Assembly (NCBI GenBank): GCA_012026655.1
Contig: JAAILG010002328.1
Coordinates: 1-55,561 of the forward strand
Reading direction: 5' to 3'
Source of the DNA: Hydrolagus affinis
Taxonomy: Eukaryota
Length of the DNA: 55,561 bases
Below, piece by piece: positions 3,201 through 51,323 of the stretch. The translations under genes were made by a program, and so were the position numbers. The notes under the pieces were generated by a model. That model was not told where the DNA came from and did not search any database. It was given only the letters and a program-made list of their open reading frames with translations. The stretch's first letter is position 1. The number at the start of each line of letters is the position of its first letter.

Positions 3201-6200
3201 ACAATTTGAGATATTGAACTTTTTAATTTATGAACAGGAGATTCCTAACACAAACTAATCAGGGTTTGGTTATAGGGTCCATGATGGACTATGTGTTCTG
3301 TATGTAAGTTTTTGAAGTTAATGGGCTTAATGAGTCAAATACTTCTTCTTAATCCATATTGTCTTATGTTTGAATGTGTGAAATAGTGTTTCTTATTTTA
3401 TGTATCTGGCTCAGCATTTATTACAATAATAATCCTTACATTTCATATGGTGCCTTTCACGTTGGGAGGACACCTCAAAGTGCTTCACAATATATATGTA
3501 AAGGGGCTTCAGGAGGACTTGAGACATAATAAAGAATACTCATTTTTGTCACTAAATCCTACCATACTTTCAATAAGAAGTTATTTATCACTACATTACA
3601 TTCACAGTCAAATTTTTTTAAGAGTGGGTGCTCGATATGTAGGATGTAATTAACAATTATACATGTGAACCAAATCAGCAGTTTACTTTCTTTTCCGAAT
3701 TGAATTTTGTGATATTGCCTCCTCTCACTTGTATCTTATTTGATTATCTAGTTTGCTTATTATAGCTCACAGTTCATATTTTGAGAAACTTTTTTTCTCT
3801 CGCTATTTTGCAGTTTTAAATATGATATTTCTTTGAAATTTTTACGGTTATCTGTTAATTAGCTTTGCTAAATATTGTGAAGTGTCAAATTAGAGCTGAA
3901 AATACACCCAGAAAATTAGTTCATTTGTAATATCATGGAGAGAAAATGAGACTCGTTCTGTTTTAGGGATTGTGGTGCAGTTCATTTAAGCTTAAGTAGG
4001 TAATGAGGTATTTTAAGTAGGTAATGAGGTATTTCAGAATGGTGCACGTTTGGTTATGGAACTTCAATTCCATTACTAGATTGGTAGACTGAAAAGTCTT
4101 TATTTCTCAAGCTCTTCATTTTAAGCAAAGTGTACAGGAAGTGACAATATTCTGCCATGTAGATATGAGCCATGATGCACAGAGCTTGTCGATGTTCACA
4201 CGTTGTCCAAGCTGGCTTGATGAGATTGGGTGTTTGCAGTGCATTAAACTGCAAGGGTCACACTTTTTATCTGACGGCGCTGTGGATACCATGTAAGTTT
4301 CTTGCTGGCTTAGGGCAAGGAGAAAAAGGCTTGAACTTGACCTGTGGTTTTGCCAACCTAACTTTGTGTTCATGTTGTAACTGGGTACTGTACAAAGAAT
4401 AAAAATGTTCCCCTTATGAGGTTGTTCAATATTGTTTTGTTTGTTTCAGGCTGAACCTTTAGATGAAAGCTCAGTGAAGAAGATGATCCTGACGTTTGAG
4501 AAGAGAGCCTATAAAAACCAGGAGCTACGCATTAAGTTTCCAGAGAATCCAGAGAAGTGCGGGCCTTTGCATTTTGCCAATTCTCCCAAGAATTTTTGTT
4601 GTTTTCTTTCGCAAGAAAGATGTCAAGGAAATTGGATGCATTTCAATCTTATTCTAAGACTATTTTGTATGAACCTTCTTTGCTCTGGGAATGAGTTTGA
4701 AAGATTACTTTATTATCATGTGAATGTTATAACAACAACAACAATTTATATAGCGCCTTCCACGCCGGACGGCGTCGCAGAGCGCTTATAAATATTTAAG
4801 ATGATACCAAAAGGTCCCCTGACTTTCATTCCCTAAACTTAGTGGGATATTGTAATCAATCTGATTGTCTTGCAGGTTCATGGAGTCAGAGTTGGATTTA
4901 AATGACATCATTCAGGAGATGCATGTGGTTGCTACTATGCCGGATCTCTATCATTTGCTTGTGGAGCTGAATGCTGTGCAGTCCTTGATTGGTCTCCTCA
5001 GCCATGAAAACACTGATATCCTTTTAATCCAATAGCAACATGTTAAACACATTCAGAGAGAACTGAATGCTAGGACTATGAGACTTTGTACATCGCTTGA
5101 CATAAGTGACCTAAAACTGAGTTGTTCATGTGTGTTCAAAGTATTTGCATATATTGCAGAAATCCAGTTAGGTCTTTATACCCATTGTGTGTCAGAGTCA
5201 ATTGAGGCTGCCTATTTTAAGATCAGCTAACTCAGCTCAAAGCTTAAACTTGTATTGGTGACCAATAAAATCTTCTGTAGCAATGTTTGTCCACATTGTG
5301 TTGCGTGTAACTTTGCCAGCTTGATCCTTAATCATTCTACATGTATCCATTGCTGTGGTCGACCTACTGCAAGAGCTGACAGATATAGACACACTGCACG
5401 AGAGTGAAGAGGGAGCAGAGGTTCTTATAGATGCTTTGGTGAGTGTGCAGCACTTCCGTATTGATGCTTGAAGTTTATTACAGTAAAAGCCTGTTTATCC
5501 GGTACCCTTGGGATCTGGCCAATGCTGGTTAAAGTGCCTGCCGGATATTTGGCCGAAAACGATAAATAAATAAATAATGTAATGCATTTTTCAGGATAAA
5601 TTCCGGTTAATCGAATGCGGACCTTTCTTTTGCGATGCTGGTTTTACGGAAGTTACGGTTGATCGGGTGCTGGATAAACTGGCTTTTACTGTACATTGTC
5701 TTTCACTTGACTACAATCTGGATTGAACAGTGGTGTGTGTGTCTGACTGCTTGTGTCAAGAATTGTTTCCTCTCTTTAAGTACTAAGCAGCCGAAATTTT
5801 CATGCATGTGTTGTCACCTCTCGTCTGGATTACTCAAAAGCACTGCTCGCCAGTTTCCCCAGCTCCACTATTCAAAAGATCCAGCTCAATTGGAATTTCG
5901 TCACCCGCATACTTACCCAAACCAAACTCTGTGCCCACATCTCACCAGTTCTTGTCCTAGTCCCCACTGGCTCCCCATCTCCGAGTGGATCGCCTTCAAG
6001 ATCCTCACACTCGTGTTCAAATCCCATCACTCCCTGGCACCTCCCTACCTCTCCGACCTACTCACTCCCCAATACTTCACTCGGCATCTTCTCTTCACTG
6101 GCACCAGCCTCCTGCTCATCTCTCGCACAGAAGGTTGTTAATAAGAATCTAAATACAATTTATGGCCATTATATACAAAATGTGAAGTACTTGTGTGAAA

Positions 6201-9200
6201 TAACACAAAAAGAAACATGGGAGTCAAATGATGTCTCTTAACTGAGCCGTTTTCTTGCCCGTCAGCAGATTCTGGGCTGTTTGATCATTTGTTGGCTCAG
6301 TGTATCTGCTTGGAGACTGAATTACTAAAAAAAAAGGCAAACTGAAATTTGCAGATGGTTGGTAATTTATTATTTAGATCTATTGGGAGAATTCATACAT
6401 TCATTTAAATAATGACCCAGTTAGGGGCTGCAAGGGAGACAGATCATCTAGAACTCTGCCGCTCATGTCCTCTCCCGCACAAGATCCTCTTCCTCACTTT
6501 CAAGGACATTTCAAGGCCATATCTCTTCGACCTGCTGACTCCCTATCAACCTGCCAGCCCCTCCGTTCAGCGGGCTCCAATCTGTTCCATGTCTCCCACC
6601 TGACCCGCCCTACCATCGGTAGCTGGCCTTTCAGCCTCTCTGCCCTTATACTCTGAAACTCCATCCCACAGTCCCTTCGCCTTGCCTCCTTCAAGGCCGG
6701 TCTTAAGATCGTTCTTTCTGCCGTCCTCCCACCTCTCTCCCTCCCCCTACCCTGCCCCATCCCTGTGCTCGGGTTCTGACCTGTGACTCTTCAGCACCTT
6801 GGGCCGTCCTCCCGACGTGAAAGGCCCTCTATAAATGTAATTTAGTTTTTGTTGTTGCAAGTAGTGATAGTTACAGCAGCTAATTAAAGAAGCAAAAACA
6901 GGTCGCTGGGAACACTCACCAGGTCAGGCCACATCTATGGAGAGAGGATATATTTCCAAATAGCCTATCTCCATAGATGCTGCCTGATGTGCTGATGTTG
7001 CCAGCAACTTCTGTTTTTGTTTCAGATTTCCATCATCTGCAGTATTTTGCACTTTGTGGTTTTAATTATAAATCTAGTTATTTCTGTCACTAACATCCAA
7101 AAACAATGTGTTTCATTTCATACAAAACGCAAAAGTTAAGAATCTTCCCATCCCCTCAAAACCAGTGTAGATAAACATCAGTTCAAGGGTAGAACTGTAC
7201 TGTGCTGTTCCCTAGGCACCCATGTGGTATAATGAAAGACGCAATAACGTCAGTACAATTACTATTACAAGGTGATCTTTAATTGCTGTTAAGCTTTGTC
7301 ATTTAAAGGTGTTCTCACTTAGGTATCAGAATAACAAATGATTAAGGATAAATTCTTTTTTTTAAAAAGCAAATTATTCTGATAGTTTCAACCTTTTCTG
7401 CCCTATTGATTCTTAAATGGGCAGCAATTATTACCATAGCTTTATATCACTGTCAATATCCAGTAAGTTTCTTTTGAATATAAATAAGGCTTATTTTTGT
7501 GACTGTGAAATTTAATAGTGGTGTTTAACTGAAGAGAAAAGTTTTTGTTTAAAAGAAAACTGTTCTAGAAGAAGTTGCATGTTACTGGTTTATGGTTATT
7601 CGGAATAGCTTTTAAACTTTTTTGAATAATTAAATATTTTGGGATCAGGTTTCTTAACTTGCCTAGATTTATCTTGTTTGGCGAATTATAATGATTTCAG
7701 AAATGCACAATATTCGTACAAGTCTTACAATTTGACCTGTTTTATGCATTGCTAGTTGAAATGGAAAACATTATGGTCCACAAGAATAGTATAAAATATA
7801 GTTCCAAGCTGTTGCTTTGTTACTTTCTTTTGAGTATTCAAGCAAATTTGCCAGAAAGTGTTGCTTATTGCATTAAAAAATTTCAATTACCGTTTGTAGA
7901 TAATGTGTGTTCTCTGAAGGTCTCAATAGACCATTAATGAGAAAATCAATTGGATACCATCACTTTGAAGATAAGCTTCTGTATTTTAGTTCTTGCATGT
8001 ATATGGTTTTATTATTTTTAATTTTTTTCTGGTCTCACAAGGACCCCTTTGCTTCTTTCACAAAAAAATTGCATTTCTGTCTTTTAGAAAGCAAATGCGC
8101 AATTTGGAACTTTATTTGATATGCGATTAACATTTAGATTCTTGAAATGTTGAAAGATTCTCGGTTTTTCATTCATTTTAAAAAATATTAGGGTTCCTTT
8201 GTGAAATGGTTAAAACCTGTCAGAAGAAACCTTTCCTAAAACAGGACTAAATATATTTTAAGAAAATCACTGACTAACTTGAGATGCACAAAGTAGCAGG
8301 GCTCAAATGGAAGTTGGATGACTTGTTTTGGAATATTGTTTGACCACATGATCCAGAGCAGCACTAACCAGGCTAGAACCATCTGCACAGAATTTAGAAT
8401 AATTCCCACAGAGCAGCCGAAAGAGCTTTAAAAATTGACAACTTGGACAACTGCTGCAGGTGCAATAATTTAAAATTCATCTCTGTGCCTGAGGGTGTCA
8501 GCAACTCCAGAACGAAATGTCTGTGTCAAGAAGATCACAGGGAAGTTGATGTGGATGCCGCTTGACTGCTCGTTCAAAATAGAACTGTCTCATAGCATCC
8601 CTACTCACTAGCCTTATCGGCTTCAAAGGCTTCCAGTTCGGCTTTTCAATCTTGGTGCTCATTGATCTGATTGAATTGGGGGGATGGTGTTGGGGGATGG
8701 GTGGGTACATTTTGTGCAGGCTTATGGAATGTAAGATTTTTGATGGACAGAAGCAAAGTATTGAGAACTGTCATCTCCAGATTTGGTCATTGTTGTAGAT
8801 AACATGAGCTGCCAATCTGGAGAAGGGAAGAAAATTTGGCTGGACAATCTCCACTGTCTCTTATCTTAAGGATTGAGTTTATTGTTTGAAAGTGTCTAGC
8901 TCAAACTACAGCTGTACAGTTTGAAAAGTTCCTAATTGTGAGATGTGGAATTTGTGCAATCTAACCTGATACTCCAATGCAATGCTTGAGATGTGGGGTA
9001 ATGGAGATGCCATCCTTCAGATGAGATGTTAAACCAAGCCCTATACGTTAAAAAGCCAATAGTACTATTGGAAAAGAGAAGAAAATTTCTCCTGACCAAC
9101 AATCTTCTAAATGAAATTGGTTGTTCTTCACCTTTTTGAGGGAAATCAATGGAATACTGTGACAAAGACAAAGTGTGCATCTTCTGACTATTTTTCTTGG

Positions 9201-12200
9201 AATACATGGGGGAATAATAGTGGTGCTTTGAACCTGAGTTTTGATCTTTTTTATAAAAATAGGTTTTCATTTGCTGATATTTGAAAGAAGGCGAAACTGT
9301 TACTAATTGCTAAAGAATTTATGCCCTCAAATGTAGTACCATGGGAAAGTCCAGGGCTTTTCTTCTTCGGCAGTTAATGGTTATCTTTGCTTCTGAATTT
9401 CACACCAGGGACATGGCTATAGACAACTAATAGCTCTAGCCTGAGAAGCAGTGACTATTCCAGGTAGATTTGATTGTATTGGTTTCATAATTGGTTCATC
9501 CAAATCTACTGCAATAAGATATTTGTTTGGTTCAAAATACATCTTCAAATATAGGTATTTGAAGACTGACCAGATTTAGCAGGTTTCTCTTAGGGAGCAC
9601 CAGTCAGCATTTGTTGTATACTGGCTATTGTTTAATGTAATCTATTTCGGTGCTTTTTATAGCCTAAAATAAAACAACAGATATGTGTTTATTTCCTTAC
9701 TCTAAAACCCTCTGTATAATGGGATTCTGGTTGTAGTCAATTGGCAGATCGCATTTCTGGGGGTAATAATTCCCTTTTTAAAAAAAAATTGCTCACTTCT
9801 GTCCACAACTGTTTGTGGGATACTGCTGTGTGTAATTGGCTGCTGTGTTTCGCCCACCAAATATACAGTTAATAAACCTTGCAGTGTATTCTGTGAAGCA
9901 CTTTGAGACATCTCGAAGACGTGATAAAGTGCTACATCAAATGCAAGAATTATTATTATTATAACAAAGCGCCTATAATAAAACAGGCTCTTTGTTGCTT
10001 TGTGCTCACTTTTGTGGCAAAAACTTCAAACACGCAAGCGAAAACTTTGAAGTTTGGATTGAAGGAAAATGGAAAATTCATTTGACAGGACATTTGAATA
10101 AAAATAAGTTGAAGGGAAGGGCAGAAATTGACTAATAAATGTGCGTTGAAACTGCCCTTTACGCCTTTGAATCAAAATGGATTGATCAAAGTCTGGAGAT
10201 TTTTAGAATTGTTTAAAATGGAAGCAACATCTGGATTTCACTCCTGGTTCGTCGAGGTAACTTCCTATAAGAAAGATAATTTGAGGATTAATTCAACGAG
10301 CACAGAGGCATCTAAGAACAATTGGTATGGCTTTAAAAGTAGCTGGCCGTGCTTCACAAATATACTGGAATCTTTGTGAGGTGGTGACTCAGCTTGTTGA
10401 CTGAGTCAGTCTTGGATACCTTTTTTATCATTTGATGAAATTCCACAGATGATGTTTATAAAGCAGGTTATAGTTCATCGAACTAATGAATTAGCTAATT
10501 GAATTTAATGCCAATTTAGCAAAATAAGCAAGGTATGATAAATATCTGGGGGAATTGACTAGCACCATTCAAAAGGATTGATTACCTATTCTATGCTGTT
10601 AATAGTGGAGTCCTGTAGCTCAGTGGTTAGAGCACTCACCTTGCAAGCGAGAGACCTGGGTTCAATTCCTAGTAGGGCAAAACCTTGAGCAAGTTTCCTT
10701 ACTCCACACTGATATAGCGCTTTATCACGTCTTCGACATGTCTCAAAGTGCTTCACAGAATATACTGCAAGGTGAATTGACTGTATATTTTGTAATCCCT
10801 CAAGAAAAAAAAATTGGTCACTTCAATCAATGACTGTTTGTGGGACACTGCTGTGCGCAATTGGCTGCCATATTTTCGCCAACAAATATACAGTCAATTA
10901 ACTTTGCAGTATATTCTGTGAAGTGCTGTCTAGAAGACATGAAAAGCGCCATGTCAAATGCAAGGATTATTATTATTATTGGTACAGGAGGTTGATGCCA
11001 TAATAGGTTAAACTGTGCTGATGGCACAAGGCTGTATGGAATAGGCACACACTGGCTTGAGCCTAACAAACTGTCAATGAACAAAGGTGGAAAACAAAAA
11101 ACCTTAGGGAATCATAAACCAAACTAATGATACTGTAAAGGATATTAAGTGGTGGGTGCATCTTGATTAATAACTTGAAACATTGTTATCTTATCTAGTT
11201 TAGACATTATGAGGTTATATTTAGAATATTGCATGCATGTTGCAGACAATGCCTTCTTACAAGTATTCATACATAAAGTAGGTTTTGGAGAACACGTGAG
11301 AGTTGAGTACTCAGTGTTATTAAGGGAGACCCACAGAACTGAACTTGTTAGAAAAAGGTTAAGAGAAGACATCATCAAGGTTTCTAACAGTATTTTGAGG
11401 AATGATGAAATGCCACCAGGTTATTTAACTTGGACCATCAGTGCAAAACCAGACAGTGTGAGTATGGAATTCACAAGCCTAAGGCAAGACTTGAGATTTA
11501 AAATAAAGTTTTTTTCTCCTATGGTGATGGCTAGGTGAAGGAGATTCTCTGATAAGGTTGTAACGCACCATTGGTTGACCCCGATTTAAAAAAAAGACAG
11601 ATTCATATTTGGCTAAAAATAGGATTGAGACTTATAAGGATAGCGATCATCAAATACTATATGGAGCATGGAGGCTCTTAATCTGCTGGGACCATGAAAA
11701 TGTTATGTCAAAGATGAATAATGTTCGAGGGATTTCGCAGTTCTGCTTAATTTCCCTTTGTGTGAACAGAGAAACTGGAGAACGTAAAGTCCATGATGTA
11801 CAGTCCACGTAAATAGTGGGCTTAATGGTCTGTCTCACTCTTTGTCTTTCCATGCTTGCTAATGTTTTGCTGTAAATTTGAAGGATATTACTGCATTGAA
11901 GAACAAGAAATACACAATAATAATCCTTACATTCACAAATAGCAACATATATAAAATTGCCAGCACTACAGTATTACTGTAAATACAATCACACCAGATA
12001 GTCTTTAGTGCCAGGTCGACTCGGCCTGAGTCATGCTCATCCAGTATATTAAGGTGAATTGACTTCAGGTATAGCTTCTTGCATCATTAATATTAGTTAG
12101 CAAACCACTTGATAGCAAGCAGTCTACCAGCACAAAACATTGTGTTCTACTTACTCATTTATGAAAAGGATTGATATTTTTCTTGTGTTAATTTTAGCTG

Positions 12201-15200
12201 GATGGTCAAGTGGTGGCACTGCTGGTTCAGAACCTGGAACGACTGGATGAATCGGTGAAGGAGGAAGCAGATGGAGTTCATAACACCTTAGGTAATATTA
12301 CTGTTCATTAAATAATTAGTATTTTTGTATATTAAACAGCTTCTTGTGGTAAGTTTTGTGACTAAGGGACAGTGTTGCTGGTTCTACTTGTAATAATTCT
12401 ACTGCTGGAGTTTAATTGTACGGTACCTTATTTAAAAAAAAATATAACCAGCAGCCAAGTAGAACATAATTATTGCAAAAAAAAATTCCATCTCTAAAAG
12501 TTGAAGCATTGCAAATGGCTGAAGGACTCCCTTCCAACTAGCACATGTAGAAAAATGCTCATGTTGTTCAACAGTTGTGATTATTTTGGAAATTTAGACA
12601 GTTCTTGTATGACTGAATTAAAATGTTTCCTGAGATATTAAGTTTTTGAACCTCGATTCCTAACCATTTTCTGTTACATTGCATCAAGGGACATCCACAG
12701 TAACCTTGAGAATAAAGCAAAGCAGCAAGCTTAATTCAAATGGTTTAGATACTCGTGCTCCTGTTATAAGAGAAAGAAATGTGCGTGAAAGTCACTCAAA
12801 CCAATCTACCAACAAGTCAAGCCTTAACTGAACAATAATTTGTAGATCGATTTGATTATACTGTCAGCCAGCTGGCTTATTGACAAGATGTAGTTTAGTT
12901 TTTCAGAAAGACGTTCTGTGCTTTACCAATGATCTCATCCAGCTTACAAAACTGCATGGTTCTGTCAATCATTTAGTGTATATAAGAATCGTTAATTCTT
13001 TTCTGTCTCTAGTCAGAATGCAAAAGTAAGGCAGACAGAAGGAATGTTCAGAAGCAGCACCAGGGTTTATGAGAAGCAATTGCCTGATCTTACAGTCATT
13101 GCGCAGTTGAGTTCCTAACCTTTAAGCTTTATTAGTGTTTTCCTAATTTTAGGATTGCAGATAGATAATTCACAAAATGCTACCAGCAGCCACATAGTGA
13201 TTGGGAATAGTGGACCCTGTGCAGCTGATAATTCTGAATCGTTTCTGTCCATTATTTCCCCATTGAGTTGATGCTCAACAAGCCAGTGTGCAATGTGCAA
13301 AATCACTGTCAGTGGGTTCAAGACCCAATCAGGAGGAACTGGTCAATCTGTAGGTTTAATTGTTTTTTCTAAATCCCATTACTGTCCATGGAAAACCTGC
13401 TCCCATAGTATGTTTACTTGTTTTGTGTTGCAATGTCGTATCTTGGGAAAGAAGCAAAGCAATGCGGTTGTCAAGTCCACTTAATAATTTCAGACGGAAG
13501 ACCCAGTTGTATTATAAATGAAACCCACCGGTGGGAATACTAATGGGGATACTACCTGGGGACGCTAATTGTCTGTGACACCAGTTCGGCTGTTTGCACA
13601 CTTCTATTACCTTTTAATTTATTTCATTCTGAACTCTATATATCAGAACGTTTCACCTGCCTTGGCCTCATTTCAGTTGAATGTTGAGAAACCTTCGCTG
13701 ACTTGCAGCCTTGGTAAAAGGTTTCGGGCTGAGTTGCTTGTATGTGTAAAAAGCAAATCCAAGTTACAAAGAAGAAATCGTCTGTAAAATGTCAATCTTT
13801 AAAAATAGGTAAGAAACCAAGCTGTTAACTTTTAACATGATCATCCATGATCCGGGAATAAAATCTGTCCAAGTCTGTTGCGGGACTTCAAAAAGGAATT
13901 TGGAGTCCAAAAAATCCTAGAAATTTACAGCACAAAAGGCCATTTTTTTGTCTATGCTGGCTCTCTTTCAAAGCATTCCTTTCAGTCCCATTGACTTGTC
14001 CTTTCCCCATACCCTTGGTAACTTATTCCTTGAAAGATATTTGTCTAGTTCTTCTTTGTAGACTAATTTGGAGCTCAGTGGCTGAGGTTTAGAGCACGGC
14101 AGGCGTGGATGGAACAGTGAACCAACAATAACAACAACTTGGATTCATATAGTGGCCTCCAAGCTGGATGGCGTCTCAGAGTGCATTACCAAGCAATTAC
14201 CAACTGACACTTTACACAACTGAAACTGAGTCTTAAACCGTTCCCTATCATTATTCAGTTTTCTCTGCTCCAAACTTTGAACAGTACCCCTTTTCAGTAC
14301 TCGCTTCACTACTGTGCATGATTGGTCTTTTGTGTCAATGCACAACTGAGCAGTGTTCAATTTCATGAGGAAAAACTCTCAGTGCGAATCCACCTGTTTG
14401 GTCAGATAGAATTTTAAGCATGCATCATTTTTACATTCATTTTACTTCATGAACATGAGTGAATGAATGGTCTCTGCTTTGCAACAGCTGTTCACAATGT
14501 ACAGTGGCATTTTGTTATGATTTTGAATTAAAATTTCTCTAGGATAGATTCTAAACAGTGAGGTGCACCATGTTTGTGAGCTTCGTCCATCGTAGACTAC
14601 CTCCATCAGTGATAAAAGATGCTTGAAATCTGAAATAAAAATAAGTTGTTGCGAACACTCAGCAGGTCAGGCAGCATCCCTGGACGTTGACCTGAAACTT
14701 TAACTCGCTTAGATGCTGCTGAGTGTTCCCAGCGAATTTCTTCTTATATTTCATCAAAGATACTTTATCAGCATTTGGAAACATGTAGCTTAGTGGTCCT
14801 TTGATGTTTTTTGAGCCTCAGGTTTCAGTGTTGAAGAGCTCCCTTTAATCTACACTCTCTAAATCTACCTGAATGCTGCTTTCTTGTCTTCACTCTTCCC
14901 TATCCCCACCCCCCCACCCCCCAACCCCCCGCAACACCTGCCATTGACCTTGAGAAAATTGCTGAGTGAGAAGATTTTGGAGATCTATTATCTGAATATT
15001 TCCATAAGGAACTGCTTACATGAAGCAATATTGAAAAAAAGCATATAATTTAAAACCAGTTTAGCCTCATTGCATAAATGCAAGTTGTTATTGCTTGTGT
15101 GTCATTTTCTCTCTCTAATCCTGTATTTTATCTGGATCTCATGCTTTTGGTTTAACACTCCTGCTTGGGTAAACCGTAAACCTGAATTGTACATAAAGAT

Positions 15201-45200: not shown

Positions 45201-48200
45201 TGCCATCTTAAGTGCAGTTGCTGCATTATCGGGGAAATCAAATGATTTAAAGTAAAGTTACATTTTCTATCAGAAGAAACAATTGGATCTTATACTGATG
45301 GATTTTAGTAAGATTTCCAGTGTCAAATGATTGCAGTGTTGCAAAAGCCAAAGGAAATGTCACATCTTGTTTCAGGTTGAGTTGAGTAAATGATGAGTAC
45401 TGCACTTCACTTTCCTGTATCGTGAAATTCTACGACCGCTTGGCTGAATTTGTTTACCCAAATTTGCATTGAATGTATTGTGTGTGCATAAAACAAATAG
45501 CCACGGCAAATGCAGAGAGACATTGGCATTTGTAAAAAAAAAAAAAAAATATGTATTGGGACATTACTTAAATGGGAAGTGTTTCAGTGCAATGTCATTT
45601 GCTATTTACAAAATGCTAGTCTTGAATTTGAATACAAATTGATATTTAGGTAGCGAGGAGTTTTGAAACAACATAGCTCCTGTGGCTTAGTGGTTAGAGC
45701 ACTTATCTTGCAAGCTGGGGAGATCAAGCTGGGAAGACCTGTGTTCGAATCCAGGAAGGTCAGGGCGAAACCTTGGGCAAGTTTCCTTACTCCACACGCC
45801 TAATAATAATCCCTCCAAAATAACCCACACTAATAAAATCGGTCATTTCAATCCACGACTGTTTGTGGGACACTGCTGTGTGCAATTGGCTGCCGCAATT
45901 CGCCCATAAATATACAGTCAATCCACTTTACAGTATATTCTGTGAAGCGCTTTGAGACGTCGATAAGACGTGAAAAGCGCTATATCAAATGCAAGGATTA
46001 TTATTATTATAATTTCAGATCACTAAACTAACAGATTTCCTGCTAACACCTTTATTCCTCTGACGGTTTCCTATTTGATTTTCTCCATTTACCAGAACAT
46101 GTTGTTTATTAGTCTTTCAGTTATTCTCGAGGTAGAATAGTCCAGGTCTTCAATGGACAGACCAGAAAGTTAACAAGGATAATTCTGAGCCTATTAAATC
46201 AAAGACATTGGTGTGGTGTGCTGTAGACTCTGAACCAAGAATGCCCCAAAAGAGAACTGGGGAAAAGTGGAAAACTGTAGATTTTCAGCTGAGCCAGCAC
46301 ATTGCCAGAATTCTTTCATGTTTAATCCATTTGGCCCAAAGTCAGAGCAATTTTGTAAATGGTACTTGATAGTTTTCCAGGTAGTTTTGAAGCTGAATGT
46401 CAAGAGTATTTGCAAAACCTGCTATTCGGACGAGTTGGGAAATGCTTTGTTATTTTTATTTCTGTAGATCTGTTTGATGTATCTTAAATGAGTGCTTATA
46501 TATAAAACTGATTTTGTTTTCTAAAATGAGATGCTGGAACTACACAACAGGTCAGTGGACATCCAAAAGAGGAAGGCAGCTATCATTCTGGGCACGACCC
46601 TTAAGACAACAGAACAGATTTTGATGAAGAAAACCTATCCTTTCAGATGCTGAGTGACTTGTTATTTAGTTCCTGGACCTAGTGTTTGTTCCCAAATTAT
46701 TATTTTTTTCCTTTGAGATAATACTTATTCTATTATTTGGAGCTTTTATATAATTGAACTAATTCCTGACTAAGCAACAATTAGCTCAATGTATAGAATC
46801 CCAAAACAATAGCGTGGCTAGTTTTCTTCACGTTGTATGACCACTTCATATCCATTTGGGCAGCTTTGAGCACTATTATCTATTATCGCCTTGGTACATT
46901 CTGTGTTAAAACATTTTTATAATAAATTACATAATATTTCCTAAATTCGTATGTCTACCTTGTATCTACGCTCTTGACTATAATCACATTATGTTTAAGC
47001 CACTGAAAATTTACAAATTATACTGTCTAACAAAGAGGAATGTATCAATGTGGAAGAGCCAACCATGCCTCACCTGACCTGTCCCCAAAGGTAAAAAAAA
47101 AATTCAGTCACTCAATCCACGACTATTTGTGGGACGCTGCTGTGCAAAATTGGCTGCCATGTATTGTCCACAAAATATAGTCAATTCTCTTTGCAGTATA
47201 TTCTGTGCTTTGAGATGCCTCGAATGCAAGGATTAGTAGTATTGTTATGTTTAATCTTAGGATGTGTAATCATGCGATCCATTAATACTCTACAGAATTT
47301 CAGGTGATTTTTATTGAAACAAAAATAAGCACAATCGAATAGTTCATCACTTGACAGATCTACCCATTAAATACCATTGCAAATGGATACCTAATTAGAT
47401 ATAAAAGACTGTAGTGTGTTAGAAGACAGTAATGCATCAAGAAATTAAAATGACGTAAAATGTGTTTTCTCCTTTGAGCTACTCTCCTGCCTGCTGTTTT
47501 ATATGGTAAATGCTGATGGAGGATGGTTTGATTCAATTTTTGCTAAGTATATTTTGCTTGCACCACTTACCCTGGACAGTGATAGATAACCCCATTCTGT
47601 GATTGAATGAAATCATTTGAACTGTATTGCTGTTCTATCACTTGACTTGAATTGCAACAATATCTATCCCGTCTGTCAGTTTTTCTCAGATTTTTGCTGG
47701 TGTTTGGTGTAGGGTTCCCTGCCTAGATTGAGACGTTAGAAGCGTTATAGTTATCGTGCCAAGAAATATGATTATATTGTAACAGCAATCATTGTTGACT
47801 CTTTATCTCTAGCCCTGTTGCATAGCCATTTCTAACACAGACTTTGTAGAACAATTCTTGCTGCCTTAGTTACTTGGCTCTCATTTATCTGGTTCTGGTT
47901 CATTGACCAATCCCACTTTACTTCCTGCAAAAGATTTGGAAGTAGGTCTTCCTTGTAAGATGTGGAATCCTGCAGAGTATTGGTTATAGAACTCGCCTCA
48001 CAAGCGAGAGGACCTAGGTTCAATTGCCAGGCAAGACGAAGCCTTAGACAAGTTTCCTTCCTTCACTCGGCTCTGTTTACCTAGCAGTAATTACAAACTT
48101 GGTAGCTCGTCGATTGGTGTGTCGTTTTTCTGGGGGTAACATGTGTTCAAATATATATATTTTGAAATAATTTGGTCACTCGAACCACAACTGTTTGTGC

Positions 48201-50472
48201 AATACTGCTGTGCGTAATTGGCTGCCACATTTCCCCACAAATTATATAGTCAATTAATTTTACAGTATATTCCATGAAGTACTTTTGAGACATCTTAAAG
48301 AACTGATAAGGTGCTATATCAAATGCAAAGATTATTATTATATATTCCATAGGCACTATCTCCCTTAAGAGATAAATCACAGTTACTGTGTAGCTGACTT
48401 TGATTTTCAGTCAGTTTCTATACTGTAGTCAGCTCATCTCTGCCATGGGACTATCTCTGGTTAAAGAGTGATAAGGTTGGGGAGGGCTGGCATGCCTGAA
48501 CATAATTCAGTGATAAGATACAATTAAACTTGTTAAAACTTGGGGTTTGGTTGCATTGAAAGCAATTCAACTGGAAAAAAACAACTCACTTTGTTGATTT
48601 GTTGCATGTGAGGCTGAGTAACGGATGAGTTCATGCCTGTCTTACTGGCTGTCAATTTAACAGCAATGATGTTCCACCAGTATCGCTGTGGCTCTCCAAA
48701 CTGAAAACCTTTCATTCCTACTTTTAGCCACAAATGAGTCTTATTTTCCTCTTCCCCCAACCTGTTCTCAAAGAAAGAGGTTACAAATCTCTGCAAAGGA
48801 CTTGCTTAGATCGGAGTAAATTAAGCAATGGAATTAAGCAATAGCATTTGAGTGAGAATGATAATCACCTTCCTTCCTGAAAGTTTTGTGCTGGAAAAAA
48901 GTTAGCAACTATAATTTCATTGCAGACTTGACGATTTGTGAAGGAGGAGAAATTTCATCCGGTATTGAATTCTATCCTACTGTGGCTTTCTGTCCTCCCC
49001 ATTCCCTCTGCCATCCAGCTTCTCATGAAATTCCATTAATTGTTGCTCATTAATATGCCTGTAAACTAGGTCTGTGCAATCAGAGTATGTTAATTACATT
49101 TCCCATTCAGACTTTGAAAGGTTTCGGTCTAAATCAGATTTTGTTATTTAATTTGACGCATATTTGTTATTAACTCCATGAAGTACCATTTTATTTCTCT
49201 CTAATTTTGCTCTCCTGTACTCCCAGTCCAATGATGACTTATGCTCAGATATGGTTTCAGAACTCGCAATATCCAAGTACTTTGGCCAAGTGCCTTTTTG
49301 TAAGTCAGGAGAGTGAGGATTGTCTGGCTACACCAAGGGTTTACCTCAATATTACAAACATGGGTCCCTAGTTAATCGTTAGGAGTGTTTTTTCCCCTCT
49401 ATAAAGACATTTAACTAATAAAGGGCCCACATCAAGTGCAAATGGGAAAAAAAAATGAAAAACATTACCGAGCATATCTGTATACTTTAGAAAATAAAAT
49501 TTTAACTCCAATTTCTATGTAAAAAATTTTAGTTAATGCACCAGAAATGTACAGAAAGGAAAAACAGCAACATTTAGACTGATTTGAGTCAAAGCATCTC
49601 AATTTAATTACCAACCAGAAAATGAAATTATTTTTGATATGGTTATTAGTCACAAGAGATTCAGATGAACACCATTTGATCTTGTCGTTTGAGAATACTC
49701 ACCCTACTAACGATCTTCTCATTGCTCATTATCAAACTTTATTAAGTGAGTCCATTCTATTGGCCTCCAGTACAGTTTCTGGTCACCCAGTCCAGCTGTT
49801 AATAACCTTCTGTAAAGTAAATTACTTCCTGAAATCTGGCCTGTGCTTCCTTTTCACATCCCTGAACTTGTGCCTCCCTTGGTACTGTACTTGAAAGCCT
49901 CTGGGAATTGCCACCATATATTAACTGATGTTTTTCAGAAGTGTCGCAAATTACCTCTTGATAAATTCTAAGACTGATTTATTTAGCTGTCATTTACATG
50001 AACAGAAAAGCGAAACAATTCAATGACTACTGAGGAATATTTAATTATTCATTATTTTCAAATATCAGCAGTAAAAGTATTGCATTGTATCTTGTAAAAA
50101 GATTTTATTTAAAAAAAAACTTTTTATTAAATCTGTTTCCAATTGTAATTGCCTCTTTGACTGCTTTCCTATTTGGTTCTGCTCATGTCAAGGCTTTGTT
50201 CATCGCATGACCCAAGTTGGTATTGTTTGCAAAATCATTCCTAAATGTTTAATAATTATATTTGAAAATGATTTGATTTGCAGATATATTTATTGCGCAT
50301 TTGAACACTGGAGAGTAGCTAGATCTATTAATAACTGGATGGTCAGTACCTAGCCCCTCACTTTGTTAAAATCTGTTTTACAGAATACACTGAAAACATT
50401 GGAGATGGAAAGACTGATGAGTACAAAGAAGCTGAACAAAAAAGGATTCTGGATCTGCTTGAACATTTCTGA
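55..50472 (+). CDS. CTNNBL1: Beta-catenin-like protein 1, spliced CDS of exons 2-16 (exon 1 outside window)
   Basis: 15 exons join in frame (183+107+140+98+94+92+73+59+149+182+98+81+138+73+89=1656 nt). The translation follows vertebrate CTNNBL1 from PDRGAKRPR through [18 protein letters not shown] and [25 protein letters not shown] to [12 protein letters not shown]. Confidence 0.98.
442..499 (+). mobile_element. L2-type 3' tail
   Basis: TTGGGATGTCCTCCTGACGTGAAAGGCGCTATACAAATGTAATT(TGT)n; same tail as at 6797-6857. Confidence 0.7.
528..1083 (+). mobile_element. L2 LINE 3' fragment (decayed ORF2 C-terminus and tail)
   Basis: Broken frames read [45 protein letters not shown]; tail GCTATGTAAATGCAAG(TTG)n. 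Confidence 0.8.
1326..1553 (+). mobile_element. Degenerate Deu-SINE 3' half
   Basis: GACGTTAACGATTCCATGGCGCTATTTGAAAAG..CTGGCTAATAATCCC..TGGGATTTTGCTATGCAAA..TGTGAAGCACTTAGAGATG. Confidence 0.6.
1641..1850 (+). mobile_element. MITE, Tc1/mariner-pogo (Tigger-like) type, copy 1 (210 bp)
   Basis: TA|CAGTAAAAGCCTGTTTATCTGGCACC...GGTGCTAGATAAATGGGCTTTTACTG|TA: ~26-bp TIRs and TA target duplication. Confidence 0.9.
2721..2952. mobile_element. Palindromic Penelope-like-derived element with hammerhead-type centre
   Basis: Arms 2751-2849 and 2854-2952 are reverse complements (about 10 mismatches in 99); centre carries CTGACGA...GAAACGTT on the - strand. Confidence 0.75.
2818..2854 (-). ncRNA. Degenerate minimal type I hammerhead ribozyme motif
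   Basis: - strand GGUU-CUGACGA-A-GAGU(UGUAG)ACCC-GAAACGUU-GACU: both core boxes, stem I GGUU/GACU with wobbles, stem II with one mismatch, palindromic ACGU in place of stem III. Confidence 0.55.
3425..3489 (-). mobile_element. L2-type tail fragment
   Basis: AATAATCCTTACATTT..GTGCCTTTCACGTTGGGAGGACACCTCAAAGTGCTTCACA. Confidence 0.65.
3992..4033. repeat. Perfect 21-bp tandem duplication
   Basis: TTAAGTAGGTAATGAGGTATT twice. Confidence 0.9.
4450..4556 (+). CDS. CTNNBL1: CTNNBL1 exon 3
   Basis: tttcag|GCT; [35 protein letters not shown](K); AA|gtgcgg. Confidence 0.96.
4731..4788 (-). mobile_element. Short L2/SINE-type tail in intron 3
   Basis: (AAC)n ATTTATATAGCGCCTTCCACGCCGGACGGCGTCGCAGAGCGCTT; related sequence at ~14124-14187. 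Confidence 0.55.
4876..5015 (+). CDS. CTNNBL1: CTNNBL1 exon 4
   Basis: ttgcag|G; [46 protein letters not shown]; ends G|atatccttt (U12 donor). Confidence 0.96.
5016..5340 (+). other. CTNNBL1: U12-type AT-AC minor spliceosomal intron (intron 4, 325 nt)
   Basis: 5' site ATATCCTTT, branch site TCCTTAAT at 5325-5332, AC terminus at 5339-5340, no long pyrimidine tract. Splicing here restores T-D-V-S-I-A-V-V-D in frame. Confidence 0.96.
5341..5438 (+). CDS. CTNNBL1: CTNNBL1 exon 5
   Basis: ctac|AT; (D)[32 protein letters not shown]; TTG|gtgagt. Confidence 0.96.
5481..5691 (-). mobile_element. Same MITE, copy 2 (211 bp), opposite orientation to copy 1
   Basis: TA|CAGTAAAAGCCTGTTTATCCGG...GGATAAACTGGCTTTTACTG|TA; its reverse complement aligns with copy 1 (GATCAACCGTAACTTCCGTA..GCATCGCAAAAGAAA..GGTCCGCATTCGATTAAC). 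Confidence 0.9.
5850..6130 (+). mobile_element. L2 LINE ORF2 C-terminal fragment
   Basis: [33 protein letters not shown], the typical L2 ORF2 end. Confidence 0.85.
6465..6857 (+). mobile_element. L2 LINE 3' end with tail
   Basis: [38 protein letters not shown]; tail TCCTCCCGACGTGAAAGGC..TATAAATGTAATT. Confidence 0.85.
6890..7056. mobile_element. Centre-deleted copy of the palindromic element
   Basis: CAAAAACAG..GCTGGGAACACTCACCAGGTCAGGC..CATCTATGGAGA ... TCTCCATAGATGCTGCCTGA..CAGCAACTTCTGTTTTTG. Confidence 0.7.
8935..9150 (+). mobile_element. Degenerate Deu-SINE fragment
   Basis: GGAGATGCCATCCTTCAGATGAGATGTTAAACCAAGCCC..TACTATTGGAAAAGAG..TTCTCCTGACCAAC. Confidence 0.55.
9692..9961 (+). mobile_element. 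tRNA-Ala-headed SINE family, long form, 5'-truncated
   Basis: CTGTTTGTGGGATACTGCTGTG..AATTGGCTGC...TTCTGTGAAGCACTTTGAGAC...CAAATGCAAG(ATT)n. Confidence 0.85.
10605..10980 (+). mobile_element. Full-length SINE (short form) with internal inverted tail insertion
   Basis: A box TAGCTCAGTGG, B box GGTTCAATTCC, TGC anticodon-like arm, family body and (ATT)n tail; 10710-10792 is the reverse complement of the family tail. Confidence 0.9.
11195..11690 (+). mobile_element. Decayed CR1 LINE 3' fragment
   Basis: RLYLEYC...[11 protein letters not shown] resembles CR1 ORF2 RPHLEYC...KRRLRGDLIEV. Confidence 0.65.
12198..12291 (+). CDS. CTNNBL1: CTNNBL1 exon 6
   Basis: ttttag|CTG; [31 protein letters not shown]; G|gtaata. 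Confidence 0.97.
13915..14055 (-). mobile_element. CR1-type 3' tail
   Basis: TAGAAATTTACAGCACAAAAGGCCATT..GCTGGCTCTC..AGTCCCA..CTTTCCCCATACCCT. Confidence 0.6.
14617..14753. mobile_element. Centre-deleted copy of the palindromic element
   Basis: GAACACTCAGCAGGTCAGGCAGCATC...GACCTGAAAC...GATGCTGCTGAGTGTTC. Confidence 0.7.
15544..15635 (+). CDS. CTNNBL1: CTNNBL1 exon 7
   Basis: ccacag|CA; (A)[30 protein letters not shown]; AAG|gtagct. Confidence 0.97.
16315..16387 (+). CDS. CTNNBL1: CTNNBL1 exon 8
   Basis: aattag|GCC; [24 protein letters not shown]; G|gtaggt. Confidence 0.96.
17578..17705 (-). mobile_element. Decayed CR1 ORF2 fragment just upstream of exon 9
   Basis: Reverse frame [27 protein letters not shown] resembles CR1 APYYKKDIEKLERVQ..IPGMxxLSYEERL. 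Confidence 0.5.
17745..17803 (+). CDS. CTNNBL1: CTNNBL1 exon 9
   Basis: tttcag|CC; (A)[19 protein letters not shown]; TCA|gtgagt. Confidence 0.96.
18762..18940 (-). mobile_element. L2 3' fragment
   Basis: Reverse frame [15 protein letters not shown]; tail-like GAGGACGTGCCAAAGTGCT. Confidence 0.6.
19256..19567 (-). mobile_element. Full-length SINE (short form)
   Basis: (AAT)n tail at left, family body, GGAATCGAACCC (B box, reverse) and ACTCCAC start at right. Confidence 0.9.
19998..20055 (+). mobile_element. L2-type tail
   Basis: CAGCACCTTGGGACATCCTCCCAACGTGAAAGGCACTATACAAATGTAATT. Confidence 0.7.
22791..22900 (-). mobile_element. Degenerate SINE tail fragment
   Basis: AATAATCCTTGTATTT..CTCAAAGCACTTCACAGGA..TACTGTAAG. 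Confidence 0.55.
23015..23294 (+). mobile_element. Near full-length SINE (short form)
   Basis: TGGAGTCCT..AGTGGTTAGAGCA..GGGTTCAATTCC..AAACCTTGGGCAAG...TTCTGTGAAGCGCTTTGAGATGTC. Confidence 0.9.
24699..24936 (+). mobile_element. SINE (short form, head mostly lost) ending ~54 nt before exon 10
   Basis: AAACCTTGGCAAGTTTCCTT..TAATAATCCCT...GTGAAGCGCTTTGAGATGTC..CAAATGCAAGG(TTA)n. Confidence 0.88.
24991..25139 (+). CDS. CTNNBL1: CTNNBL1 exon 10
   Basis: ttctag|GTA; [49 protein letters not shown](R); AG|gtaagc. Confidence 0.97.
26560..26745 (-). mobile_element. Degenerate Deu-SINE fragment
   Basis: CCTTGC..TTTATCACATC..TCAAGGCACTTCACA...GGACACTGG..CTTTTCAAAT..ATCCTTAATATCCACCTGA. Confidence 0.5.
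27650..27831 (+). CDS. CTNNBL1: CTNNBL1 exon 11
   Basis: ttccag|A; [60 protein letters not shown]; G|gtaaac. Confidence 0.97.
27872..27998 (-). mobile_element. SINE body fragment starting ~40 nt after exon 11
   Basis: TGTCTCAAAGCGCTTCAC..TATACTGTAAAGTGAA..GGCAGCCAATTGCGCACA..GTCCCACAAACAG. Confidence 0.88.
28829..29010 (-). mobile_element. L2 3' fragment with tail
   Basis: CATTTGTATAGTGCCTTTCATGTCGGGAGGACATCC; reverse frame [21 protein letters not shown]. Confidence 0.75.
29348..29754 (-). mobile_element. Full-length older Deu-domain SINE (SacSINE1/AmnSINE1-like)
   Basis: Reverse strand reads tRNA-like head (TGGCTTAATGGTAGC..GTGGGTTCAAGCCC), then GGTGGATGTTAAAGATCCCATTGCACTATTTGAAAAGAG..GGTGTCCTGGCCAATATT (Deu-like, from recall), then an L2-type tail. 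Confidence 0.75.
30992..31148. repeat. Imperfect ~79-bp tandem duplication
   Basis: TCTTGGCATAGTAATGATCTGTGG identical at 30992 and 31071, each followed by ATGGTG..TACATATC..GGA(A)ATCCT. Confidence 0.8.
33170..33267 (+). CDS. CTNNBL1: CTNNBL1 exon 12
   Basis: ttgtag|AG; (E)[32 protein letters not shown]; AAG|gtaaag. Confidence 0.97.
33776..34001 (+). mobile_element. SINE, long form, 5'-truncated
   Basis: GTCGATTGGCGGATCACTTTTCTGGGGG..AATTGGTCACTTCAATCCACGACTGTTTGTGGGAC...CAAATGCAAG. Confidence 0.88.
34875..34955 (+). CDS. CTNNBL1: CTNNBL1 exon 13
   Basis: ccacag|GTC; [27 protein letters not shown]; CAT|gtaggc. Confidence 0.96.
36108..36652 (-). mobile_element. Longer (545 bp) member of the same MITE family
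   Basis: CAGTAAAAACCTGTTTATCCGGCACC...GGAAGTTACGGTTGATCGGGT..GGATAAACAGGCTTTTATTG|TA; extra internal sequence with imperfect repeats. Confidence 0.85.
37281..37418 (+). CDS. CTNNBL1: CTNNBL1 exon 14
   Basis: tttcag|GAC; [46 protein letters not shown]; CAG|gtaatt. Confidence 0.97.
37624..37739 (-). mobile_element. SINE tail fragment
   Basis: CCTTGCATGTGATATAGCGCTT..CACGTCTTCTAGATGTCTCAAAG..CTTCACAGAATATACTGTAAAG. Confidence 0.85.
39620..39795 (-). mobile_element. SINE 3' half
   Basis: (AAT)n, GCGCTTCACAGAATATACTG, GGCAGCCAATTGCGCACAGCAGTGTCCCACAAACAGTCGTGGATTGAA. Confidence 0.88.
40747..40819 (+). CDS. CTNNBL1: CTNNBL1 exon 15
   Basis: ttctag|ATT; [24 protein letters not shown]; G|gtaagt. 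Confidence 0.97.
41455..41621 (+). mobile_element. L2 3' fragment
   Basis: TCTTCAAAACTCACCTTGAGACATATTT (FKTHLETY) and TCCTCCCAACGTG..TATAAATGTAA. Confidence 0.6.
43910..44155 (+). mobile_element. Decayed CR1 3' end
   Basis: CACTATAGGACA..TTCTTCACACAAA..GAGAATGTGTAATAG..GAATTTAAG..GCCATGAATTAAT..TTGATGGGTCCAATGACT. Confidence 0.6.
44426..44540 (-). mobile_element. SINE tail fragment
   Basis: ATAATGATCCTTGCATTTGA...CACAGAATAC..AAGTGAATTGACT..TATTTTGTGGGC. Confidence 0.75.
45678..46010 (+). mobile_element. Full-length SINE (short form) with a 14-bp duplication in the head
   Basis: TGGCTTAGTGGTTAGAGC, CAAGCTGGG(G/A)AGA twice, GTTCGAATCC, family body, (ATT)n. Confidence 0.9.
46530..46688. mobile_element. 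Old degenerate copy of the palindromic element
   Basis: GATGCTGGAACTACACAACAGGTCAG..CATC...TTGATGAAG...AGATGCTGAGTGACTTG. Confidence 0.5.
47095..47243 (+). mobile_element. SINE 3' half
   Basis: CAATCCACGACTATTTGTGGGACGCTGCTGTG..AATTGGCTGCC...TGCAAGGATTAG. Confidence 0.8.
47962..48340 (+). mobile_element. Full-length SINE, long form
   Basis: tRNA-like head, CAAGTTTCCTT..CTCTGTTTACCTAGCAGTAA..GTCGATTGG..TTTCTGGGGGTAA, body, (ATT)n. Confidence 0.88.
49650..49885 (-). mobile_element. Decayed CR1 3' end
   Basis: GCCTCCAGTACAGTTTCTGG..TCCAG..ATAACCTTCTGTAAAG..TACTTCCTGAAATCT..CTGAACTTGTGCCTCC. Confidence 0.6.
50384..50472 (+). CDS. CTNNBL1: CTNNBL1 exon 16, last coding exon (stop TGA 50470-50472)
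   Basis: ttacag|AA; (E)[28 protein letters not shown]. Confidence 0.96.
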
Positions 50473-50984: not shown

Positions 50985-51323
50985 TGTAGCTTACTGGTGA
51001 GAGCACTCAACTTACAGGCGAGAGGACCTTGGTTTGATTCCGAGGAAGGACGAAATGCTAGGCAAATTTGCTTATTCCACATGCCTCTGTATACTTAGCA
51101 GTAAGTAGGAACCCAGTTATTTGTTGATTAGTGTGTCACTTTTCCGGGGGTAATAATCCCTTAAAAAAGTGGATAATAAGAAGAATTTGATCATTCAATC
51201 CATAGTTGTTTGTGGGACTGTGTGTAATCGGCTGCCGTGTTTCACCCACAAAATATACAGTTAATTCACTTTGCAGTATATTCAGTGACGTCTATACTAA
51301 ATGTGAGGGTTATTATTATTATT
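50985..51323 (+). mobile_element. Full-length SINE, long form, downstream of the CTNNBL1 stop
   Basis: TGTAGCTTACTGGTGAGAGCACTC..TCCACATGCCTCTGTATACTTAGCAGTAAGTAGG..GGGGGTAATAATCCC..(TTA)n. Confidence 0.85.

What the first reader, a model, noticed from the sequence alone, without database searches (positions are those of the whole stretch)
10605..10980. SINE with an inverted family tail placed behind an intact Pol III promoter: a possible built-in antisense RNA
Seen: after the tRNA head and ..TTACTCCACAC, 83 nt (10710-10792) are the reverse complement of the family tail, and then the normal body resumes at TAATCCCT. The switch falls at TGATA, which is also present at that point in sibling copies (GCCTGATAATAATCCCT), suggesting a microhomology template switch. 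The insert retains bases missing from this copy's own tail. A and B boxes are intact, and the first T4 is at 10788-10791, at the end of the insert. Established: vertebrate Pol III can stop at T4, and the tail is the part recognised by the partner L2 reverse transcriptase. Inference: Pol III would make a ~185-nt RNA antisense to the family's mobilisation signal, a possible trans-repressor. Read-through or pre-mRNA would instead fold into a ~75-bp hairpin with 10883-10957.
Basis: partly seen in the sequence, partly recalled or inferred. Interest (0 to 1): 0.7.

Follow-up and report, generated by a model that had tools for sequence, protein, structure and literature searches.

The report
Backwards neighbour fragment inside old SINE
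An old jumping-element copy (SINE) in an intron of the CTNNBL1 gene carries an 84-base backwards piece of its family's tail that occurs in this arrangement only once in the genome assembly and was likely copied by accident from a related copy 770 bases upstream, so it is probably an ordinary, harmless DNA-copying scar and not a built-in antisense regulator.

Summary
The structure is real: a tRNA-derived SINE head (10605-10709), 84 bases of inverted family tail (10710-10793), then the normal body. A/B boxes and the first T4 (10788) are as described. Both junctions occur once in the 1.1-Gb assembly, so it has not spread. The insert is not from this copy's own tail (other subfamily type, 64/84 matches). 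It best fits a longer-form copy 770 bases upstream (76/84, no gaps; 5 of 6 derived bases shared, against 1 of 240 unrelated tails). It lacks the terminal repeat and a target duplication, and replaces 9 host bases. Best reading: a one-off template switch in replication or repair. The TGATA microhomology needs an extra 3-base loss (0 of 38 siblings). The repressor idea has no support beyond feasible pairing: both promoter boxes pass in 20 of 65 siblings, 5 of 105 other heads also run into antisense family sequence before a T4, the host gene already holds three other antisense tails, tails number roughly 580,000, and no young copies were sampled. Read support and expression stayed untested. The scan noted similar inverted templated pieces in SINEs of other genomes.

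The parts
10605..10709 (+). tRNA-Ala-derived head of the host SINE (short form)
   Evidence: 7.6% from the family majority, 5 of 65 siblings as close or closer
10616..10626 (+). Pol III A box
   Evidence: sequence; pattern test
10659..10669 (+). Pol III B box
   Evidence: sequence; pattern test
10710..10793 (-). 84-base inverted fragment of the family tail (long-form, type B), cut at both ends, replacing 9 host bases; no terminal repeat, no target duplication
   Evidence: junction patterns unique in G000
10788..10791 (+). first T4 run (possible Pol III stop)
10793..10881 (+). body of the host SINE, with a second T4 at 10873-10876
10882..10980 (+). host's own tail (type A), with a 7-base deletion in the 3' stem-loop, ending in TAT repeats
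9691..9962 (+). neighbouring long-form SINE copy; 9856-9939 is the likely template of the insert
5439..12197 (+). intron of CTNNBL1 that holds both copies in sense orientation
   Evidence: PF08216 exon matches 5343-5450 (profile 99-133) and 12183-12296 (125-162); GT at 5439, AG ending 12197

Best explanation
The insert is a single-copy, 84-base inverted fragment of SINE tail that likely arose once when a stalled or broken DNA strand briefly switched to the related SINE copy 770 bases upstream, copied it backwards and returned, and it is probably neutral. Shown: orientation, both ends truncated, 9 host bases lost, no target duplication, uniqueness of both junctions in the assembly, subfamily mismatch with the own tail, best local match to the neighbour. 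Inferred: the neighbour as template; a polymerase template switch (MMBIR, four-point template switch or theta-type repair) as the route; use of TGATA at one switch point with 3 further bases lost and of a single T at the other; an age near that of the host copy (insert and neighbour now differ at 8 of 84). Consequence, inferred: one more double-stranded stretch in the CTNNBL1 pre-mRNA (mostly insert with neighbour), and a host copy that cannot move again because T4 runs at 10788 and 10873 lie before its damaged tail.
For: Junction patterns with up to 2 mismatches: right junction 1 hit, left junction 3 hits of which 2 are unrelated non-SINE DNA. Insert vs 273 other tails (60 x 10 kb taken at fixed positions plus the window): neighbour ties for first (76/84, no gap), own tail ranks 142 (64/84). 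Two linked sites split tails into types (59C with 70T, p = 2e-13; 59A with gap, p = 1e-18, n = 240); insert and neighbour are type B, own tail type A. Insert differs from the type-B majority at 6 sites; the neighbour shares 5, against 1 of 240 unrelated tails with 5 and none with 6, and that one is not type B. None of 28 genome-wide best hits other than the neighbour's locus shows the full five-site pattern. Insert ends 20 bases short of the family's 3' end, unlike target-primed insertion. Inverted, nearby-templated, microhomology-flanked germline insertions are described (PMC8421209, section 10 part 1 and passages; PMC5453318, passages).
Against: The neighbour is not the top genome-wide match by raw identity: 9 other places score higher (91-94%) and 11 tie among 40 scored of 1986 candidates. 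Two of the five shared bases are CpG decays. Private changes are lopsided, 1 in the insert and 7 in the neighbour (p = 0.07). The neighbour now reads one base differently within the TGATA-adjacent stretch, and the microhomology needs a 3-base loss seen in 0 of 38 siblings. 770 bases is beyond the 100-base reach used to define such events in PMC8421209. The own tail also shares two minority bases with the neighbour (1 of 128 random bodies scores as high), which this model does not explain without later local conversion. Neutrality is argued from context, not measured; the head is somewhat better kept than most (5 of 65 as close).
Confidence: 0.65

Rival explanations
1. A fragment of some other type-B copy (RNA, cDNA or distant DNA) was captured at a double-strand break without the element's endonuclease, as in non-classical L1/Alu insertions; the likeness to the neighbour is chance.
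For: No target duplication, no terminal repeat, 9-base target loss, the marks of non-classical L1 insertions (PMC1920257, abstract and section 11). Type-B tails are 94 of 240. Needs no microhomology, so the missing GCC is no problem. Some distant copies match at 92-94%.
Against: Only 1 of 240 unrelated tails shares 5 of the 6 derived bases; with two nearby candidates considered the chance is about 1-2%.
Confidence: 0.17
2. The piece was written in while the host SINE was being inserted: the reverse transcriptase (or repair of the integration gap) jumped from the RNA to the neighbouring DNA copy and back.
For: Same donor evidence as the best reading. Half the insert-neighbour distance (about 4.8%) is near the host's non-CpG distance from the majority (5.0-5.2%).
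Against: Needs two jumps and a return to the same RNA 9 bases on, in mid-element and not at the 5' end where such extra pieces usually lie (own knowledge). No target duplication round the host to tie it to one event (best 4 bases).
Confidence: 0.08
3. Fold-back onto the copy's own tail before that tail lost its 7 bases.
For: Arms only 93 bases apart, 95% complementary over 40 bases; both carry minority base 26G.
Against: Own tail is type A at both linked diagnostic sites, insert type B; rank 142 of 274; 0 of 28 short-form full copies with a scorable junction and tail have a type-B tail.
Confidence: 0.03
4. Assembly or library chimera.
For: Fragmented assembly (245,464 contigs); the junctions lie between high-copy pieces.
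Against: Overlaps at the junctions are 5 and 1 bases, too short for a graph misjoin (inference); the insert is not an exact copy of anything found (best other 94%; neighbour 76/84), whereas a fold-back chimera would be exact.
Confidence: 0.04
5. Whatever its origin, the copy is transcribed by Pol III into a 187-nt RNA that pairs with the 3' stem-loop of sense SINE or LINE RNAs and dampens their movement.
For: A and B boxes pass, first T4 at the insert's end; co-folding with the family majority RNA gains about 61 kcal/mol; the insert covers the stem-loop, which stringent LINE proteins need (PMC4176376, abstract and passages); a LINE with a related tail lies in 7 of 30 reverse-transcriptase loci; head divergence in the lowest tenth (5 of 65).
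Against: One locus against roughly 220,000 heads and 580,000 tails (extrapolated from 128 and 344 in 655,561 bases). 5 of 105 other heads, 1 of 26 with both boxes, also reach antisense family sequence before a T4. The same gene's introns hold three other antisense tails (19259, 27867, 29401). Closest of 65 full copies is 5.6% from the majority and the seven LINE copies are 87-95% alike: no active target seen. Old tRNA-SINE loci are rarely expressed (1301 of about 600,000 human MIRs, PMC5381342, passages). Body divergence is ordinary (27 of 65 as close).
Confidence: 0.02

Closest known systems
Templated insertions from microhomology-mediated template switching (MMB-TI, PMC8421209; four-point template switch mutations, PMC5453318)
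   Same: Short insertion inverted relative to a nearby template, replacing a few bases, creating an inverted repeat, fixed in the germline.
   Different: Template 770 bases away (their search used 100); one junction's microhomology needs an extra 3-base loss; template and target are both SINE copies.
Non-classical (endonuclease-independent) L1 insertions, PMC1920257; the Alu counterpart is recalled, not read
   Same: Retroelement fragment cut at both ends, no target duplication, target deletion.
   Different: Here the donor seems to be local DNA; a fish SINE tail, not L1.
Inverted SINE pairs in introns (inverted Alu-type duplexes; own knowledge)
   Same: Sense and antisense family sequence in one pre-mRNA forms long double-stranded RNA.
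   Different: The antisense arm is a small fragment nested inside one copy, behind its own promoter.
Hairpins and new miRNAs made by template switching (PMC10710096, abstract and introduction)
   Same: One event makes an intronic stem.
   Different: Arms here are diverged paralogues; longest unbroken helix 26 pairs with a loop of about 88 bases, not the 35-bp stem with short apical loop of a miRNA precursor; Rfam miRNA hits far below gathering score.
tRNA-derived SINEs with a LINE-derived stem-loop tail (UnaSINE1/UnaL2, ZfL2; PMC1636434 listing, PMC4176376 passages)
   Same: tRNA head, body, stem-loop tail, short terminal repeat; related tail on a LINE in the same genome.
   Different: Family name and the LINE's clade were not determined; likeness of the body and tail to the Deu-SINE group is recalled only and untested.

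Membership tests
tRNA-derived SINE (host) | tRNA-like head with A and B boxes | tested here: met
tRNA-derived SINE (host) | high copy number, dispersed | tested here: met
   128 heads, 188 bodies, 344 tails in 655,561 bases
tRNA-derived SINE (host) | 3' tail shared with a LINE | tested here: met
   7 of 30 RVT_1 loci carry a related tail (74-78% over 46-55 bases) about 0.7 kb after the RT match; loop differs, so the exact partner is not shown
L2-partnered SINE | partner LINE belongs to the L2 clade | not tested
   no phylogeny against named LINEs was run
Template-switch / MMBIR templated insertion | insert is the reverse complement of a nearby template | tested here: met
   neighbour 9856-9939, 5 of 6 derived bases shared vs 1 of 240; statistical, not proven
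Template-switch / MMBIR templated insertion | microhomology at the junctions | tested here: inconclusive
   5 bases only with a 3-base loss seen in 0 of 38 siblings; 1 base at the other junction
Template-switch / MMBIR templated insertion | template within about 100 bases (operational limit in PMC8421209) | tested here: not met
   770 bases
Nested target-primed SINE insertion | intact 3' end with terminal repeat and a target duplication | tested here: not met
   stops 20 bases short; 9 bases lost, none duplicated
Non-classical retroelement insertion | no duplication, truncated ends, target deletion | tested here: met
Non-classical retroelement insertion | copied from RNA by the element's reverse transcriptase | not testable with these tools
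   local DNA donor fits better
New chimeric SINE subfamily | several copies share both junctions | tested here: not met
   1 copy in G000
Functional antisense Pol III RNA | locus-specific Pol III transcript | not testable with these tools
   no small-RNA or ChIP data on offer
Functional antisense Pol III RNA | sequence constraint | tested here: inconclusive
   head 5 of 65, body 27 of 65 as close to the majority; orthologous insert not seen or excluded

The most novel reading that the evidence does not exclude
A single template switch put the family's mobilisation stem-loop backwards behind a working Pol III promoter and ahead of a T4 stop, making in one step a 187-nt tRNA-headed antisense RNA that the host kept to dampen its most abundant SINE and the partner LINE.
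Probability: 0.02. Interest if true: 0.7.

Novelty: new member of a known kind. Interest (0 to 1): 0.14.

Why it matters
As most likely true, it matters little: one more germline templated inversion, with the mild merit that the donor can be pointed to 770 bases away and that it shows repeats of one family trading pieces locally. If the RNA were made and active, it would show a one-step route from a retrotransposon copy to a Pol III-driven repressor of its own family; three searches (and the listing) showed no paper on such an element, but I read only listings for these and the library omits most subscription journals.

Tried and rejected
Read support: no RNA holder listed; the best holders share 0.56 of the words and differ from the window by about 1-2% in the flanks, so they are other individuals or species. 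Two lays were swamped by family copies; no listed contig of X1, X5, X7 or X9 spans either junction, nor was a pre-insertion contig identified, but only 32 and 24 pieces were shown of about 289,000 and 14,900, records are filtered, and graph cleaning may drop rare paths inside high-copy repeats, so this is no evidence either way. X1 and X5 contigs run 23-24 bases into the head and tail from the unique flanks (below the 31-base bar), a weak hint that the host SINE is shared. Run X21 (poly-A single-cell RNA, organism B, 27% read) had no depth at 10715-10724; the library would miss a Pol III RNA and organism B may lack the insert: uninformative; editing could not be judged. L002, L008 and L032, which looked like further copies, are other head-to-head or nested arrangements with different junctions. 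L072 and L073 are chance matches outside SINEs. First tail ranking had faulty end gaps and was redone. The 5'-truncation tally failed and was not repeated. miRNA reading rejected. I found no paper on T4 context in this taxon (listing only). Rows dropped before counts: tails with under 58 of 84 matches (31 of 273); 27 of 65 full copies not scorable at the junction.

Full report
Observation. The window shows a tRNA-derived head at 10605-10709, an 84-base reverse complement of the family tail at 10710-10793 and the normal body and tail to 10980. ARAGORN and Rfam both call the head a tRNA. A and B boxes pass consensus patterns and T4 runs start at 10788 and 10873. The element folds far better than shuffles (z = -8.3), with 70 pairs between insert and own tail.

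Setting. The copy lies in sense orientation in an intron (5439-12197) of CTNNBL1, whose exons match PF08216 along the window. The family is very abundant: 128 heads, 188 bodies and 344 tails in 655,561 bases made of 60 stretches taken at fixed positions plus the window, roughly 220,000 heads and 580,000 tails if scaled to the assembly (large contigs only, so rough). There are at least two forms: a short form like the host, and a longer form with about 65 extra bases between head and body. Seven of 30 reverse-transcriptase loci carry a related tail about 0.7 kb after the domain, which supports a LINE origin of the tail; its loop differs and its clade was not tested, so 'partner L2' remains an inference.

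Has it spread? No. With two mismatches allowed, the right junction has one hit and the left has three, two of them outside any SINE. A DNA search across the left junction found one other spanning hit among 40 scored, L032, a different nested arrangement. None of 105 other heads in the sample has the same sandwich, but 15 other opposite-orientation joints of family pieces within 40 bases occur in 655 kb, so such scrambling is common in this genome.

Where did the piece come from? Tails fall into two linked types. The own tail is type A, the insert type B, and the own tail ranks 142 of 274 by alignment (64/84): fold-back on itself is unlikely. The long-form copy upstream (9856-9939) ties for first (76/84, no gaps). 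The insert differs from the type-B majority at six sites; the neighbour shares five, against 1 of 240 unrelated tails, which is not type B. Against this: 9 distant places score higher by raw identity among 40 scored, two shared sites are CpG decays, and private changes are 1 versus 7 (p = 0.07). The own tail also shares two minority bases with the neighbour, perhaps from later local conversion; this is unexplained.

Junctions. Siblings read CCACAC-GCC-T(G/A)ATAA-TAATCCC; the host lacks those 9 middle bases. The other junction shares one T. The insert stops 20 bases before the family's 3' end and there is no duplication, so it is not a target-primed insertion.

Mechanism. Best reading (0.65): a polymerase at a stalled fork or break left the host copy, copied 84 bases of the neighbour in the opposite direction and returned. 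Such germline events are described (PMC8421209, section 10 part 1 and passages; PMC5453318, passages), though mostly from closer templates. Rivals are capture of a distant fragment at a break as in non-classical L1 insertions (PMC1920257, abstract and section 11), a jump during the host's own integration, fold-back, and artefact. An artefact is unlikely because junction overlaps are 5 and 1 bases and the insert is not an exact copy of anything found, but no reads could be shown across the junctions.

Function. For the repressor: boxes pass, a 187-nt RNA would cover the stem-loop that stringent LINE proteins bind (PMC4176376, abstract and passages), pairing is favourable, and the head is better kept than most (5 of 65). 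Against: both boxes pass in 20 of 65 full copies; 5 of 105 other heads, 1 of 26 with both boxes, reach antisense family sequence before a T4; the same gene holds three other antisense tails; the closest full copy is 5.6% from the majority, the best of 128 bodies 97%, and the LINE copies are 87-95% alike, so no active target was seen, though a short-read assembly may collapse young copies; in human cells 1301 of about 600,000 MIR loci were expression-positive (PMC5381342, passages). The hairpin with the own tail would need read-through of two T4 runs, and in pre-mRNA the insert is predicted to pair with the neighbour, which is made first (79 pairs versus 0). It does not look like a miRNA precursor (PMC10710096, abstract and introduction).

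Prior notes. Nothing near this place. A word search gave unchecked notes on inverted templated pieces in or beside SINEs in other genomes; one suggested the integration-coupled rival. They are leads, not support. No supplementary files were read.

Verdict. Real, single-copy, most likely neutral templated inversion inside an old intronic SINE; a new instance of a known kind. Interest 0.14; the repressor reading has about 2% odds and would merit 0.7.

Noticed in passing
window 4453-37409 (+): Exons of CTNNBL1 (PF08216) at 4453, 4874, 5343, 12183, 15534, 16321, 24955, 27648, 33166, 37299.
   Followed up: partly
window 47962-48341, 50985-51288, 9691-9962; L117, L109, L122: Long form of the SINE family with about 65 extra bases between head and body and a type-B tail; probably the older subfamily.
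   Followed up: partly
L156, L158, L162, L163 about 2940-2995; L137, L157, L164 about 775-830: A LINE family, copies 87-95% alike, whose 3' stem-loop resembles the SINE tail but has another loop.
   Followed up: partly
L002 1501-1795; L008 1480-1783; L017 971-1679: Head-to-head or 5'-inverted arrangements in which an inverted tail is joined to a headless body.
   Followed up: partly
L032 1460-1720: An inverted copy without its terminal repeat joined at almost the same point of a degraded head; that point of the head may be prone to breaks or insertions.
   Followed up: partly
window 10899-10906 and 9874-9881: Own tail and neighbour share two minority bases (3% and 6% in 128 bodies), one also in the insert; possible local gene conversion.
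   Followed up: partly
window 11070 and 11262: Runs X1 and X5 carry 12 and 5 extra bases relative to the window.
   Followed up: no
joints 10973-10980 back to 10605: Many contigs show tail-to-head tandem copies of the family, so copies often insert into the TAT repeat of another.
   Followed up: no
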